Shown: positions 3,518 through 14,541, counted from the first letter of the stretch. The stretch is 64,000 bases of DNA from Dictyostelium discoideum (GCA_000004695.1 CM000150.2:2592001-2656000), one strand, 5' to 3'. Notes: generated by a model not told the origin, from the sequence alone. Program-made: numbers and translations.

Positions 3518-6500
3518 ATGATATTGTTTTCATCATCATCATCATCAATATTTTATAAAATTAGAAATAACTTGCTTTATTTATTTAGTATTTTATATAT
3601 AGTAGTAATATGTTTATGGGGTGTTAGTAATGTTGCAGTTGTAGAATCAGCTGCAATTAATACGAATGGAGGTAGTACAAGTGATACTTACTGTCCATAT
3701 CAAGCACTTCCAGACACATTAAATGATTTAAATTTTTTAGGTTTCGATGGTGAATTCCACATACACGAAACTTTTTATTATAATTTCAAAAACTTTCAAA
3801 AATCAATATCTTTTACACTTTTACAAAAAAGTGCTTTCCGTATTTATACTGCACCACATGTTGTAGATATTGATCTTTGGTTATATAATAAATCTGATTC
3901 TTCAAAAGCTGTTGCTGTAAGTATACATTTAAAAAGAAATAAAATAAAATATAATAAAATAAATTTTATTACTAACTTTTTATTATTATTATTATTATTA
4001 TTATTTTTATTATTATTATTATTATTATTATTATTATTATTATTATTATTATTATTATTATTATTATTATTATTATTATTATTATTATTATTATTATTAT
4101 TATTATTTTATTTATAAAAAAAATAGCATACATCAGATATGGGTGGTGATGAAAATTTATATGCAGAATTAGAAGCTGGCGAATATTTTATTAAATTTTT
4201 ATTCTTTGGTCAAAATAAAGCAAGTCAATTAGATTGTACAACAATTACTTTAGAAATCGCCATTTCACCAACTGTAAATATTTACCTTTTTTTTTTTTTT
4301 TTTTTTTTTTTTTTTTTAAAAAAAAAAAAAAGAATATTGTATACAATATACTAATAAATTTATGTTTTTTTTTTTTTTTTTTTTTTTCATAATTTATTTA
4401 TTTTAGAGTTTGGTTCAATCTAGAATGCAAGATTTCGGTTGCCCAAGTAAACAAATTTTACCAACCATCAGTTGGACAACATTACAAAATACAGGTAAAT
4501 TAACCTATGATTCAGATGTTAATCAAGATGGTACAGTTTTAAATATTAATGATATTGGTTCAACTGATTTATATAAATTTGCTGCAAATATTCCATTCAC
4601 TTTACCACAATCAAATACAATTAATAAATATAGTGTTGATGTTTCAATGGGTTTTGATTTTTTAACTGGTGGTTCATTAAAGTAAGTTATAAATAAATTA
4701 ATAAATAAATAAATAAATAAAAATAAAATACTAAATATCAATTTATTTTTTTAAAATTTCAAGTGTTTTAATTCAAAGTGCAGATTTACCAGCACCAACA
4801 AATCTTTTATGTTTAAAAGATGGTAATTGTACAATTGGTGTACATTTAAGTAAGAGTCATTCAATTATAAAGACAGTATTATTACCAGGTGATTATATTA
4901 TTTGGATTTATGATCAAACTCAAGAGAAAGATATGGCAATTCAATTAAAATGTTTACCATTTTCAATGTTTATCGATATTCAACCAGCTCAACAAGTTGA
5001 GGACTTTTTAAATTGTCAATCCTATTTCTTACCAAGTTCATTCAATGAACCTGGCTTTTTAGATGATGGTGGTTTTATGTATTTCGATGAGGATGTTTAT
5101 TTAGATCTCTCTGTAAAGAGTGTAGCAATCACATTCAACCTCACACAACCAAGTTATTTCCGTACTTATATTCCAGATTTTCGTGTCGATATCGATATTT
5201 CATTGACAAAGATTGGCGTTGCACAACCAATTGCACGTTCATACAAATTTGGAGGTGAGGAGGAGATTAACGCTCAATTGAATCAAGGTAGTTACATTTT
5301 AACTTTATTCTACTTTGGTAAGAATGCAGATGTATTTTGTGACGAATATGCATTGGAAGTTGCAATCGTACCTCAAACCGATTATATTGGTAGCACTTGT
5401 ACAACCTCATCTGCACCAGATTTCTCAAGCATTAATCAAACACTTTTCAATAGTGCCTCAAAATCCTATAGTTTGAATGCAGTTGCTGGTCAAACAATTC
5501 CAAGATATCAATATGTTTTCGATAAAACCGATCTTAATCCACAAACTTTAGCCTCTGTAAATTTCACAATTCCAGACGATGGTGATGAAGATGGTATCTA
5601 TTTCTTTGAATCAATCATAGAGAGTAGTTTTGTATTGGGTGACGTTCGTTTAGTACTCACCGATTTAGCAATGACTCAAGATCAATCAAATATCGTTTAC
5701 GTTGGATCACATGATCGTAATCGTCATATCATTTCATTACGTATTTATCCAGGTGATTATCAAATTCAAATTCAAACTCCAAGAATCTCTCAAAATCAAC
5801 TCGATTATCTTCCATCCTGTTTAACCTATTCACTTAGTATGATCATTAAACCATCGAATGGTGATGAATTCGATCCATCATGTTTTGGTTTAGTTAGTAT
5901 TTTACCAGGTGATTTAAATACTCCAGCTTATTTAGGTACTTCAAATCGTTTACATGTCTCTGGTGAATATTTAATTCCAACTTTACCAATTTTCACTTCA
6001 ACTAGTACCTATCACAATTTCACCGTAGCATTGGATTCCATTCTTAGAGTTTACACTCAATACAATAAAGTCGATATTGATTTAAATCTTTATGAAAATG
6101 GTAAATTAGTTTCATGGAATACTCGTTTCTACACTGAAGAGGCTATGGTTTATCAATTAAAGAAAAATACACCATATCAATTACGTATTAAATATTTCCG
6201 TCTTAGTATTTCATCAATTCCAGCTTGTTCAACCTTTAATTTAGAAATGGTTATTTCACCACTTCAAGAGAATCCAAAGGATTCTTGTAAACAATTGAAT
6301 CAAGTACCATCCAATCTCATTCCAACACCAACTTTAACTCCATTCTTTTCAAGTGAATCCTATAATTTCAATCAAAATTCATCTGCAATGACATTTAAAT
6401 TACCATTTGTCGTTCCAGTGAAATCAGGTTCCGCTATCTTCCGTGCTGTCTTATCCTATGATTTCATTTGGAATAATTTAGCAATCGTTTTGAAATCTTC

Positions 6501-12500: not shown

Positions 12501-14541
12501 TAATTTACGTCTCTACAGTGATGATTTCATGGCTCCATCAACAGCCTCCACTCAAAATATCTCCTTTACAATCGGTCAACCAACATTTGTAAACATTTTC
12601 ACTATCGATGATCTCACTGCCTCAATCGATGCCGATATCTTTGTCAAGAATACCGCCAATGATCAAGATCTTCTCTATGATGTTACACTTCATAATACCG
12701 CTCAACATTCAATGTTATTCGTTGCCAATCCACCAAAATCTGGTCTCCAAAGTGATTTCTCAATTAGTTTAACATTCAAAGGTGTATCTAAAGATGCTTG
12801 TCCAGCTTTTGGTTTACAAGTGGTAATGAAACCTGTCTCTTATTTAACCAATCAACTCTATTGTACAAAGAATTTCCATCCAAAACTTCCAAATACAAAT
12901 CCAAAACCAAATCAATATGGTGCAGTCAATGAATATATCTCCTCAAGTATGCCAGGTGATTACATCAATAGTATGGCCACTGCTAACAATCAATTCGAAT
13001 ACAATATCGATTTCTCTTTGGATCGTATCTCTCGTATTGAAGCTTCCATTAGTTTCGATTCAATTGCCACCAACTTTTATTTGAAACTTTCAACTAGAAC
13101 CACCGATAAGAGTGGTAAAGTTGTTCGTAATTCAATTAGCACCGGTGATTGGAATGCTGAAAATTCATTTGGTGAAACCACAATGACCTCTTCCATCTCA
13201 AGCTCACGTTTAGCCATTGGTAACTATTCAATCACAATCGTTCAACCAAAATATCAACCAAACTCTTGGATTACCTCAAGTATCTATGGTGAATTATGTT
13301 TCCCATTCACTTATTCCCTCACAATTATGGATAGAAATCAAGTTTATGCTGGTTCAGTCACTCCTAGCAATGGTTTCAATCTTTTACCAAATCATGATCT
13401 CAATTTAGTCTTCCAAACTCATTCAACACTCTATAGTGACGCTCAAGCTACCATCTTTTGTAATTCTTCTCAATATATTAAAGATACCTTTTATTTGGCA
13501 AGTCAATCCTCTAGTGATACCATCGCACCATCCAATGTTATTTGTGGTGCTGATGATGGAACTAAATGGATTTTTGTATTCTCAAATGATTCACTCGTTG
13601 CCGACTCTTCCTATATCCTCAGTATTCGTGATGGAAAACTCTTTGATTCTACTGCTGTACCAGCAATACTTCCACCACAACATATCTACACCATGTTGGA
13701 CACCTCTTGTTCAAACAATGGTTATTTCAAAGATTCAGGTTGTATATGTGCTAAAGGTTACACTGGTGTAGATTGTAACAATTGTGCACTAGATTATCAT
13801 AATATTGACACTCAAGGCTCCCCAATTTGTGTTAAATCCGAATGTGAACCATACTATTGTGGTTGTGATCCAAATAATAACTCCACTTGTACTCAATTGG
13901 GTAAATGTGTAACTAACACAGATGGCAATGCAGTTTGTATTTGTTCTGGACCATACAGTGGTACAACTTGTAATAAGTGTGCTTTGGGCTATCATAACTA
14001 TCCATATTGCACAGTGTGGAAGGATTGTGGTGATTGTGGTAAAGGTAGTTGTGATCATGAAAATGGTCAATGTACTTGTCCAGATAACTATCAAGGTCCA
14101 TCATGTTCTCAATGCGCCGATGGCTACAGTGGTAGTGATTGTAAAAAGAATGGTTCCGGTGCTATCGTTGCCTTGGAAGTTATTGGTGCCTTAGTAGTTG
14201 CCTCCATTTTAATTGGTGCTGCCATTTGGTATATCAGAAATCGTTATAGATCAGGTGTCACTCGTTATAAGATGTTACCAAAATTCGATTTCGATAATGA
14301 TGGTGAACATACAACTCAATTCCCTGGTCTTTATGATGACGATGATGATGCTTTTGGTGGTGGTGATAATTCCGCAAATAAAAACGATAAATCCATCAAT
14401 AGATCTGGTGGTAAAACTCACGTATTCAGTTTCAGTGGTATGCCTTCATCTGCCATCGACTCTGATGATGATGATGACTATGAACAACAACAAAAAGTAA
14501 AAGCTGAAAATCATAAAACCAATCATTTATTCGATATGTAA
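3518..14541 (+). CDS. Giant type-I membrane protein of about 3530 aa. Signal peptide, about 20 tandem PPC-like (pre-peptidase C-terminal-like) beta-repeat modules in two blocks, each block followed by a laminin-type EGF cluster, then one transmembrane helix and an acidic cytoplasmic tail.
   Basis: Four exons joined by GT..AG introns, all phase-consistent: 3518..3916, 4127..4273, 4407..4681 and 4764..14541. Introns 1-3 are AT-rich; intron 1 is almost pure (ATT)n. N-terminal signal peptide (MILFSSSSSSIFYKIRNNLLYLFSILYIVVICLWGVSNVAVV). Repeated motifs: YLGF..H....Y, S.LRVYT.PH..DVDLWLY and G.Y.L.L.Y...C..F.LE.AI.P. Cys-rich C.C.GHG.C...C.C..GY.G..C..C repeats (CNCNGHGTCGDDGVTCVCKDPWAGIDCSKCKAGYHG). 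TM helix AIVALEVIGALVVASILIGAAIWYI followed by a D/E-rich tail. Confidence 0.85.
3981..4108. repeat. Perfect (ATT)n microsatellite of about 42 units that makes up intron 1 of the giant gene.
   Basis: Direct reading of the sequence. It is flanked by the GTAAGT donor at 3917 and the ..aaaatag acceptor at 4126. Confidence 0.9.

What the first reader, a model, noticed from the sequence alone, without database searches (positions are those of the whole stretch)
3518..14541. Giant eukaryotic membrane protein built from about 20 tandem PPC-like (bacterial pre-peptidase C-terminal-like) domains
The ~3530-aa product contains about 20 consecutive ~110-150-aa modules. The 'A' type carries ...S.LRVYT.PH.(L/V)D(V/I)DLWLY...G..V........E.V...L.AG.Y.L.L.Y.......C..F.LE(I/L)AI.P. 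The DxDLWLY core and the G.Y.L.V.Y strand are the hallmark of the PPC domain (Pfam PF04151) that caps secreted bacterial and archaeal peptidases. That domain is rare in eukaryotes. To my knowledge it is not described as a long tandem array in a eukaryotic type-I membrane protein with laminin-type EGF clusters. The gene may be a lineage-specific innovation or an old horizontal acquisition that was later amplified. It is probably an adhesion or cell-surface recognition molecule.
Basis: partly seen in the sequence, partly recalled or inferred. Interest (0 to 1): 0.85.

Follow-up and report, generated by a model that had tools for sequence, protein, structure and literature searches.

The report
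Giant ancient receptor of twenty PPC-like domains
This Dictyostelium gene encodes a 3,532-residue single-pass membrane protein built from twenty disulfide-stapled domains with the fold of bacterial collagen-binding/pre-peptidase domains; the whole design is conserved across distant phagotrophic protists, has never been studied, and its tail carries a conserved sorting signal that points to a trafficking receptor.

Summary
The four-exon model (3518-14541, +) translates to 3,532 aa, identical to annotated D. discoideum proteins (DDB_G0270488, "hypothetical"). The ectodomain is [(A-B)x5, Ig-like domain, laminin-type EGF cluster] twice, then one transmembrane helix and a 101-aa acidic tail.

"Lineage-specific innovation" is wrong. 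The ten-pair architecture is conserved in Amoebozoa, Diphylleia and 'Rmarinus' (probably Rhodelphis). Half-size, five-pair forms occur in ciliates, and about 1,400 cluster representatives match.

New here:
- The protein is an internal duplication of a whole five-pair block.
- 19 of 20 modules keep one Cys pair.
- A membrane-proximal YxxΦ motif is strongly enriched in the tails.

The best reading is a multivalent receptor sorted by clathrin adaptors; this is inferred, not shown. The closest functional precedent is the Entamoeba CPBF lysosomal-hydrolase receptor family. Homology to it could not be tested.

The parts
3518..14541 (+). Whole gene: D. discoideum DDB_G0270488 orthologue, 4 exons, 3,532 aa plus stop
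3518..3916 (+). Exon 1 (aa 1-133)
   Evidence: (donor GCT|GTAAGT)
3917..4126 (+). Intron 1, holding an (ATT)n microsatellite at about 3980-4107
4127..4273 (+). Exon 2 (aa 134-182); it ends at the A1/B1 module boundary
4407..4681 (+). Exon 3
4764..14541 (+). Exon 4 (aa 274-3532 plus stop)
3572..3625 (+). Hydrophobic core of the N-terminal signal sequence (aa 19-36, LLYLFSILYIVVICLWGV)
   Evidence: read from the sequence, no predictor was run
3686..9108 (+). Block 1: A1-B1 to A5-B5, Ig-like X1, EGF cluster 1 (aa 57-1722)
3686..4273 (+). A1 module (aa 57-182, spans intron 1)
   Evidence: E 3e-34
4407..5010 (+). B1 module (aa 183-356, spans intron 3)
   Evidence: E 9.4e-14
5011..5376 (+). A2 module (aa 357-478)
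   Evidence: E 3.2e-24
5377..5871 (+). B2 module (aa 479-643)
   Evidence: E 1.3e-13
5872..6267 (+). A3 module (aa 644-775)
   Evidence: E 2e-25
6268..6696 (+). B3 module (aa 776-918)
   Evidence: E 7.7e-12
6697..7104 (+). A4 module (aa 919-1054)
   Evidence: E 1.6e-14
7105..7518 (+). B4 module (aa 1055-1192)
   Evidence: E 1.1e-5 (C-terminal half only)
7519..7938 (+). A5 module (aa 1193-1332), a variant with a GGPQ-containing N-terminal insert
   Evidence: E 1.9e-5, best partner A10
7939..8412 (+). B5 module (aa 1333-1490)
   Evidence: E 7.8e-5
8413..8787 (+). X1: Ig-like beta-sandwich domain (aa 1491-1615)
8788..9108 (+). EGF cluster 1, laminin/attractin type (aa 1616-1722)
9109..14142 (+). 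Block 2: A6-B6 to A10-B10, Ig-like X2, EGF cluster 2 (aa 1723-3400); a duplicate of block 1
9109..9492 (+). A6 module (aa 1723-1850); best PPC match of the window protein
9493..9999 (+). B6 module (aa 1851-2019)
10000..10344 (+). A7 module (aa 2020-2134)
   Evidence: E 3.9e-13
10345..10782 (+). B7 module (aa 2135-2280)
   Evidence: E 7.2e-9
10783..11172 (+). A8 module (aa 2281-2410)
   Evidence: E 2.8e-22
11173..11598 (+). B8 module (aa 2411-2552)
   Evidence: E 2.1e-17
11599..11958 (+). A9 module (aa 2553-2672); the only module lacking both conserved cysteines
   Evidence: E 1.7e-7
11959..12402 (+). B9 module (aa 2673-2820)
   Evidence: E 8e-11
12403..12840 (+). A10 module (aa 2821-2966), GGP-insert variant like A5
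   Evidence: E 6e-4
12841..13326 (+). B10 module (aa 2967-3128)
   Evidence: E 3.9e-4
13327..13707 (+). X2: Ig-like domain (aa 3129-3255)
13708..14142 (+). EGF cluster 2, laminin type (aa 3256-3400)
14161..14235 (+). Transmembrane helix (aa 3407-3431)
   Evidence: read from the sequence
14236..14538 (+). Cytoplasmic tail (101 aa): basic juxtamembrane stretch, acidic runs, conserved FPGLYDD, HVFSF and C-terminal LFDM
14266..14277 (+). YKML, a YxxPhi-type tyrosine sorting motif 10 residues after the membrane

Best explanation
SHOWN (anatomy, about 0.9 confidence). The gene encodes a type I membrane glycoprotein. About 3,360 residues lie outside the cytosol, arranged as [(A-B)x5, Ig-like domain, laminin-type EGF cluster] twice. 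A and B are two diverged versions of one beta-sandwich module of roughly 90 core residues, with the fold of the bacterial PPC / clostridial collagen-binding domain. Each module carries one conserved Cys pair: one near its N-terminus and one on its last strand. One A and one B pack into a confidently predicted two-domain unit. The protein arose by duplication of a whole five-pair block. It has been kept at about 3,400-3,760 aa in Amoebozoa, Diphylleia and 'Rmarinus'.

INFERRED (mechanism, about 0.4 confidence). The twenty PPC-like modules form a long multivalent ligand-binding platform on the cell surface or in the lumen of endocytic compartments. The short acidic tail carries a conserved membrane-proximal YxxPhi signal. 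This signal would be read by clathrin adaptor (AP) complexes, so the protein would cycle between the plasma membrane or Golgi and endosomes, phagosomes or lysosomes. It would work as a cargo or particle receptor of the phagocytic/lysosomal pathway, in the manner of the Entamoeba CPBF hydrolase receptors, rather than as a static adhesion molecule.
For: - Gene model and identity.
- Twenty modules. A and B are homologous (hhalign probability 96%, E 3.5e-9).
- Sequence: PPC is the only recurrent Pfam family (16 of 138 modules). The A-B profile hits collagenase domains through its B part (E 0.011-0.014) and Tk-SP through its A part; 8 of its 9 PDB hits are PPC-type.
- Disulfide: 19 of 20 module positions keep both cysteines in nearly all of 14 species. 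A9 lacks both in all 14, and this co-loss implies that the two pair within a module.
- Block duplication: reciprocal best profile matches are A1-A6, A3-A8, A5-A10, B1-B6, B2-B7, B3-B8 and B5-B10, and X1-X2 aligns at 98.8% probability.
- Conservation.
- Sorting signal: YxxPhi lies within 25 residues of the membrane in 21 of 34 non-redundant tails, against 4.0 +/- 1.8 in shuffled tails (0 of 2,000 shuffles reach 21). The x positions vary freely.
- Precedent: Entamoeba CPBF1-11 are type I receptors with YxxPhi tails and similarly weak PF04151 similarity (2.3e-3). They carry lysosomal hydrolases (PMC3465781; PMC12930195).
- Phyletic pattern: the named organisms holding the family are, to my knowledge, free-living phagotrophs.
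Against: - No localisation, ligand or phenotype data exist for this protein.
- YxxPhi is a short motif, and the tails compared are phylogenetically related.
- In CPBF1 itself, mutating the motif did not change localisation.
- Here the motif is membrane-proximal in a 101-aa tail, whereas in CPBFs it sits at the very C-terminus of an 11-38-aa tail.
- Homology to CPBFs could not be tested.
- DDB_G0270488 was one of 13 genes hit at least 3 times among 63 suppressors of the tgrB1-tgrC1 allorecognition mismatch (PMC5052037). That hints at a cell-cell recognition role. It was never validated, and a 10.6-kb coding sequence is a large mutational target.
Confidence: 0.45

Rival explanations
1. It is a static cell-surface adhesion or recognition molecule. 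The PPC-like array and laminin-type EGF modules would bind substrate, matrix or other cells, and the tail would anchor or signal rather than sort.
For: - The protein has a very large ectodomain with laminin-type EGF clusters.
- The closest folds are collagen-binding and claudin-binding domains.
- DDB_G0270488 recurred at least 3 times among suppressors of the tgrB1-C1 allorecognition mismatch.
Against: - The same architecture is conserved in protists that, to my knowledge, are strictly unicellular and do not aggregate (Arcella, Mastigamoeba, Balamuthia, Diphylleia, 'Rmarinus'). It is therefore not tied to multicellular development.
- It appears single-copy and of fixed architecture, not an expanding polymorphic family.
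- The YxxPhi enrichment in the tail fits trafficking.
- The suppressor hits were not validated, and the gene is a large mutational target.
Confidence: 0.3
2. The resemblance to PPC is generic. The modules would be an independent eukaryotic jelly-roll sandwich that converged on PPC-like strands, with no common ancestry with bacterial PPC or collagen-binding domains and no horizontal transfer.
For: - No module reaches Pfam's PPC cut-off; the best is 17.3 bits against 25.9.
- PDB profile hits have E 0.01-1.5.
- The conserved Cys pair is a family-specific feature. I do not recall it in bacterial PPC or collagen-binding domains; this was not checked here.
Against: - Three independent lines converge on the same family: recurrent Pfam hits to PPC alone among 24,736 models, PDB sequence hits that are nearly all PPC-type, and top structural matches.
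- The Pfam alignment spans almost the whole PPC model (positions 6-67 of 70).
Confidence: 0.2
3. It is a recent, lineage-specific dictyostelid innovation made by tandem amplification of one module.
For: The repetitive appearance of the protein. Orthologue lists name only 'hypothetical' or 'EGF-like domain-containing' proteins.
Against: - Position-by-position orthology of all ten pairs holds across Amoebozoa, Diphylleia and 'Rmarinus', with lengths of 3,360-3,764 aa.
- Modules are only about 20-35% identical to one another.
- The duplication was of a whole block and predates these lineages.
Confidence: 0.02
4. It is a secreted-peptidase precursor or peptidase-associated protein, as in bacterial PPC-bearing enzymes.
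For: Only the PPC-like fold.
Against: No peptidase or other catalytic domain was found in the whole protein at E<=10 or in any sub-region. The PPC-like modules are internal and number twenty, rather than forming one C-terminal cap.
Confidence: 0.02

Closest known systems
Bacterial/archaeal pre-peptidase C-terminal (PPC, PF04151) domains and clostridial collagenase collagen-binding domains (ColG s3a/s3b, ColH s3; PDB 5iku, 1nqd, 3jqw, 5sv5; the Tk-SP and KP-43 C-domains)
   Same: - The strand motifs are shared (DxDLxLY, then G.Y.L.V.Y).
- Weak but specific sequence similarity exists for both A and B modules.
- Tandem use of two such domains occurs in ColG s3a-s3b.
   Different: - The similarity is below Pfam's family threshold.
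- The host is eukaryotic.
- There are twenty copies in strict A-B alternation instead of one to three C-terminal copies.
- No peptidase is attached.
- Each module has a conserved Cys pair.
- The modules sit in a type I membrane protein with Ig-like and laminin-EGF domains.
Entamoeba histolytica cysteine-protease-binding protein family (CPBF1-11), lysosomal hydrolase receptors (Nakada-Tsukui et al. 2012, PMC3465781)
   Same: - Amoebozoan type I membrane proteins with a signal peptide, one transmembrane helix and a short cytosolic tail with YxxPhi.
- Similarly weak similarity to PF04151 (2.3e-3 there; 1.6e-3 to 9e-3 here).
- CPBF1, 6 and 8 are found in phagosomes.
   Different: - CPBFs are about 900 aa, roughly the length of three A-B pairs. 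The paper reports no EGF domain in them.
- Their YxxPhi is at the extreme C-terminus.
- They are described as having no homologues outside Entamoeba.
- Sequence homology to this family was not testable here, so this is a 'works like' comparison, not a membership claim.
[quoted passage not shown]
   Same: From general knowledge of these receptors, the design principle is shared: a very long luminal array of repeated disulfide-bonded beta-rich domains, one transmembrane helix, and a short acidic tail with tyrosine-based and dileucine-like signals.
   Different: No MRH or VPS10 domain was detected, and the repeat fold is unrelated. This is an analogy only.
Laminin / attractin / teneurin-type EGF modules
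   Same: Both Cys-rich clusters match EGF_laminin, EGF_LMN_ATRN and EGF_Teneurin above or near threshold.
   Different: These modules make up only about 250 of 3,532 residues. The 'Tenascin C' label on the Balamuthia orthologue reflects only these modules.

Membership tests
Pfam PPC (PF04151) | Sequence score at or above the curated gathering threshold (25.9 bits) | tested here: not met
   The whole protein gives no PPC hit at E<=10. Single modules: best in the window is A6 at 17.3 bits, E 0.0089. Of 138 A modules from 14 species, 16 hit at E<=1 (best 0.0016) and none reaches threshold. B modules give no Pfam hit.
Pfam PPC (PF04151) | Beta-sandwich fold of solved PPC / collagen-binding domains | tested here: met
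   [not shown]
Pfam PPC (PF04151) | Located at the C-terminus of a secreted peptidase | tested here: not met
   No peptidase domain anywhere in the protein.
Pfam PPC (PF04151) | Ca2+-binding acidic residues as in the ColG collagen-binding domain and Tk-SP C-domain | not tested
   Conserved D.D and EE positions exist in the A consensus. Model coordinates could not be inspected.
Entamoeba CPBF hydrolase receptors | Type I topology: signal peptide, single transmembrane helix near the C-terminus | tested here: met
   Read from the sequence. The tails of orthologues show the same layout.
Entamoeba CPBF hydrolase receptors | Short cytosolic tail carrying YxxPhi | tested here: inconclusive
   YKML lies 10 residues after the membrane, and the motif is present in 21 of 34 family tails against 4 expected. 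However, the tail is 101 aa and the motif is not C-terminal as it is in CPBFs.
Entamoeba CPBF hydrolase receptors | Detectable sequence homology to CPBF1-11 | not testable with these tools
   No CPBF sequence could be obtained. CPBFs are not among the best 150 of 1,383 profile hits.
Entamoeba CPBF hydrolase receptors | Binds lysosomal hydrolases and is needed for their delivery | not testable with these tools
   Needs experiment.
Laminin-type EGF (PF00053 / PF24973) | Score above the gathering threshold | tested here: met
   EGF_LMN_ATRN 34.3 bits (cut-off 27) in cluster 1. EGF_laminin 44.4 bits (cut-off 21) in cluster 2.
CUB domain | Pfam CUB match, or CUB as the best structural neighbour | tested here: not met
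   [not shown]
Dicty_CTDC (PF00526) | Pfam match | tested here: not met
   No hit at E<=10 or in the EGF regions.
Ig-like (E-set) fold, for the X1/X2 domains | Ig-like beta-sandwich as the best structural neighbours | tested here: met
   [not shown]

The most novel reading that the evidence does not exclude
This family would be the ancient, widespread free-living counterpart of the Entamoeba CPBF receptors, which are currently regarded as Entamoeba-specific. That would make it a third major class of lysosomal/phagosomal cargo receptor, besides mannose-6-phosphate receptors and Vps10/sortilin. It would be built from PPC-like domains, date back to early eukaryotes, and be retained in phagotrophic protists. 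The roughly 900-aa CPBFs would then be shortened derivatives of about three A-B pairs of the giant ancestor.
Probability: 0.2. Interest if true: 0.8.

Novelty: new variant of a known kind. Interest (0 to 1): 0.6.

Why it matters
Dictyostelium is a main model for phagocytosis, macropinocytosis and lysosome biology. Yet this single-copy, 3,532-residue conserved membrane protein has no described function.

This work shows three things:
- It is built from a bacterial-type binding fold, used twenty times in a fixed order.
- That order has been preserved across several eukaryotic supergroups.
- Its tail carries a selected adaptor-binding signal.

Together these make it a concrete, testable candidate for a receptor of the phagocytic/lysosomal pathway.

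The results also offer a possible evolutionary origin for the Entamoeba CPBF hydrolase receptors, which are linked to virulence and so far have no known relatives. Finally, they define a large unannotated domain family (about 1,400 cluster representatives) that Pfam does not currently capture.

Tried and rejected
- Self-BLASTP found no internal repeats because the modules are too diverged. Profile HMMs were needed.
- Pfam on the whole protein gave only EGF families.
- Pfam on single B modules, the X domains and the tail gave nothing meaningful.
- The afdb50 fold library was unavailable.
- An attempt to collect true PPC sequences for a profile-profile test, using the Tk-SP C-domain segment, found no candidates.
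- A word-indexed search with the A-B alignment returned nothing at E<=1e-5, although the exhaustive HMMER search finds 1,383 proteins. I treat this as a tool limitation, not as evidence.
The prokaryotic-origin question is therefore untested.
- The supplementary table of Li et al. 2016 is not held. That g1-g7 belong to the tgrB1-C1 suppressor screen was deduced from the text.
- The short 600-1,300-aa profile hits look like fragments of giant orthologues, not CPBF-like proteins.
- Rejected readings: Dicty_CTDC, CUB, peptidase precursor, and recent lineage-specific expansion.

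
Full report
**1. Observation.**

The region is AT-rich: 12-25% G+C in spacers and introns, 31-39% in the long exon. This is typical of Dictyostelium.

Canonical GT..AG sites give four exons: 3518-3916, 4127-4273, 4407-4681 and 4764-14541. The coding sequence is 10,599 nt and the product 3,532 aa, with no internal stop.

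The translation is 100% identical over its whole length to KAM9941394.1 of D. discoideum. It is identical to AX4 DDB_G0270488 (XP_645904.1, UniProt Q55E77) apart from a 2-residue indel. Those records call it "hypothetical protein" or "EGF-like domain-containing protein".

**2. Repeat anatomy.**

BLASTP of the protein against itself sees nothing, because the modules are only about 20-35% identical. Profiles resolve them:
- A profile of the A6 orthologues finds all ten A modules (domain E 2.7e-58 to 6e-4).
- A B6 profile finds all ten B modules (3.6e-71 to 3.9e-4).
- A and B alternate strictly.
- A and B profiles align over about 90 core columns (hhalign probability 96%, E 3.5e-9). All twenty modules are therefore one domain type in two flavours.

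A hydrophobic N-terminus, one transmembrane helix (aa 3407-3431) and a 101-aa acidic tail complete a type I protein.

**3. Internal duplication.**

All-against-all profile comparison of the 20 modules, each represented by its orthologue alignment, gives these reciprocal best pairs: A1-A6, A3-A8, A5-A10, B1-B6, B2-B7, B3-B8 and B5-B10. X1 aligns with X2 at 98.8% probability.

A5 and A10 share a GGP-containing insert. B1 and B6 share an extra Cys pair.

The protein is thus [(A-B)x5, X, EGF] duplicated once as a whole block. It is not a product of stepwise tandem amplification.

**4. Is the module PPC-like?**

*Sequence evidence.* Scanning 138 single A modules from 14 species against all 24,736 Pfam models, PPC (PF04151) is the only family that recurs. 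It has 16 hits at E<=1, the best at 0.0016; the next family has 3 hits.
- The window's A6 scores 17.3 bits (E 0.0089) and aligns to positions 6-67 of the 70-position model.
- No module reaches the 25.9-bit threshold.
- The A profile searched against PDB sequences returns mainly Tk-SP subtilisin (its C-terminal jelly-roll) and ColG/ColH collagen-binding domains, at E 0.2-0.4.
- The A-B pair profile returns collagenase collagen-binding domains through its B half (E 0.011-0.014). It also returns B. anthracis collagenase PPC and KP-43, and Tk-SP through its A half. Eight of its nine hits are PPC-type.

*Structure evidence.* AlphaFold2 on A6-B6, using 66 orthologous and paralogous pairs, gives pLDDT 92.4 and pTM 0.89.
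- The related C. perfringens enterotoxin C-domain scores 9.7. GOLD (at most 8.6) and CUB (7-8.3) follow.
- Foldseek also ranks 5iku first (E 6e-10), aligned across both domains.

*Conclusion.* The PPC/collagen-binding-domain fold is supported for both A and B. Formal Pfam membership is not met. The defining context of PPC, a C-terminal cap on a secreted peptidase, is absent, because the protein has no catalytic domain.

**5. A family-specific feature.**

Nineteen of the twenty module positions keep exactly one Cys near the N-terminus and one on the last strand in nearly all of 14 species. A9 lacks both in all 14.

The co-loss argues that the two cysteines pair within a module. That fits an extracellular or luminal location.

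The high pTM of the two-domain model suggests that an A and its B form a fixed unit. This is an inference.

**6. Distribution.**

Full-length orthologues of about 3,400-3,760 aa, with all ten pairs, occur in these lineages:
- every sequenced dictyostelid group (49% identity in D. purpureum, 41% in Cavenderia);
- Balamuthia, where the record is mislabelled "Tenascin C";
- Cavostelium, Phalansterium, Endostelium, Arcella and Mastigamoeba;
- Diphylleia rotans (CRuMs);
- the EukProt entry "Rmarinus", probably Rhodelphis marinus.

An exhaustive HMMER search of 1.84 billion cluster representatives finds 1,383 proteins at E<=1e-3 and 226 at E<=1e-30. Within these there is a class of 1,700-2,000-aa proteins with five pairs, followed by a Cys-rich region. 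It includes the ciliates Blepharisma stoltei and Stentor coeruleus. A few proteins of 4,600-5,200 aa have 11-14 pairs.

Only one cluster comes from D. discoideum, so the gene appears to be single-copy there.

The "lineage-specific innovation" reading is refuted. The ten-pair design predates the split of these supergroups.

Whether the module was originally acquired from prokaryotes could not be tested.

To my knowledge, all named hosts are free-living phagotrophs.

**7. The tail.**

Tails differ greatly in sequence but share four features: a basic juxtamembrane stretch, acidic runs, frequent LL/LF-type C-termini, and a tyrosine motif close to the membrane.

Y-x-x-[LIMFV] occurs within the first 25 tail residues in 21 of 34 non-redundant family members. 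Shuffles of the same tails give 4.0 +/- 1.8, and none of 2,000 shuffles reaches 21. The x residues vary freely: YKML, YHRV, YLPL, YFPM, YASV, YQFL, YSLI and others.

This is the pattern expected of a selected YxxPhi adaptor-binding signal, from established knowledge of AP mu-subunit recognition. The sequences compared are phylogenetically related, so the shuffle count is not a strict probability.

**8. Mechanism.**

*Shown:*
- a very large, disulfide-stabilised, probably glycosylated ectodomain (31 N-x-S/T sequons);
- ten rigid A-B units and two Ig-EGF spacers;
- a single membrane span;
- a tail with a conserved tyrosine motif.

*Inferred:*
- The PPC-like modules are binding modules. Their nearest solved relatives bind collagen, claudins or sugars.
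- They form a multivalent platform.
- The protein is sorted by clathrin adaptors between the surface or Golgi and endo-, phago- or lysosomal compartments.

*Functional precedent.* The closest precedent is the Entamoeba CPBF family. These are roughly 900-aa type I receptors with YxxPhi tails and weak PF04151 similarity (2.3e-3). They carry cysteine proteases, amylases, beta-hexosaminidase and lysozymes to lysosomes and phagosomes. They are described as having no homologues elsewhere (PMC3465781; PMC12930195; PMC8717582). No CPBF sequence could be obtained, so homology is untested.

*Main rival.* The protein could be a static adhesion or recognition molecule. The only published mention of the gene lists it among 13 genes hit at least 3 times in 63 suppressors of the tgrB1-tgrC1 allorecognition mismatch (PMC5052037).
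- The hits were not validated.
- By my rough estimate, about 0.5-0.8 hits are expected by chance in a 10.6-kb coding sequence, assuming 20-30 SNVs per genome, 63 strains and a 34-Mb genome.
- The evidence is therefore weak.

**9. Novelty and verdict.**

The gene is annotated but uncharacterised, and I found no description of the family or its architecture.

The fold is known. The following appear to be new:
- the twenty-fold A-B array;
- the block duplication;
- the module disulfide;
- the deep conservation;
- the tail signal.

I rate it a new variant of a known kind, with interest 0.6. The most novel reading not excluded is that this family is the ancestral, widespread form of the CPBF-type lysosomal cargo receptors. 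I put its probability at about 0.2, and its interest would be high if true.

Noticed in passing
window 20482-29548 (-): Two adjacent large ORFs together encode a type I polyketide synthase (KS-AT-DH-MT-ER-KR-ACP) fused to a C-terminal type III chalcone-synthase-like PKS. From memory, this resembles the 'Steely' hybrid PKS architecture of Dictyostelium.
   Followed up: partly
window 149-1999 (+): The upstream neighbour encodes a GRAM plus RabGAP-TBC domain protein.
   Followed up: partly
window 53714-56689 (-) and 61185-62465 (-): A P4-type phospholipid flippase ATPase fragment and an M24 aminopeptidase-P-like gene. The ORF at 42485-44041 (-) has no Pfam match.
   Followed up: partly
window ~3980-4107 (intron 1 of the giant gene): A long (ATT)n microsatellite fills most of intron 1. 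It creates a spurious extension of the exon-1 ORF to 4117.
   Followed up: no
window 4273/4274: Intron 2 sits exactly at the A1/B1 module boundary, in phase 0. The other 18 module boundaries have no intron.
   Followed up: no
window 11599-11958 (module A9): A9 is the only one of the 20 modules that lacks both conserved cysteines, and it does so in all 14 species examined. It also gives the weakest, partial match to the A profile.
   Followed up: partly
related proteins P0095 (Blepharisma), P0189 (Stentor), P0110, P0112, P0119: Half-size relatives of 1,770-2,013 aa have a single (A-B)x4-5 block followed by a Cys-rich region. They are either the unduplicated ancestral form or a paralogue.
   Followed up: partly
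related proteins P0056, P0070, P0076, P0081 (4,600-5,189 aa; metagenome/Logan assemblies): Larger relatives with 11-14 A-B stretches and an extra Cys-rich region. The source organisms are unknown.
   Followed up: no
tails of several amoebozoan orthologues (P0014, P0017, P0035, P0038): A longer shared juxtamembrane motif, Y-x-P-[LM]-G-L-[ER]-[ED]-[LY], extends beyond the simple YxxPhi. Several C-termini end in acidic-cluster plus LL (for example DDDLLLSL in Balamuthia), which resembles acidic-dileucine sorting signals.
   Followed up: no
tool behaviour: The word-indexed protein search returned nothing for the A-B alignment, even though the same database had returned 22 full-length homologues for the whole protein. 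These negative results should not be read as absence.
   Followed up: no
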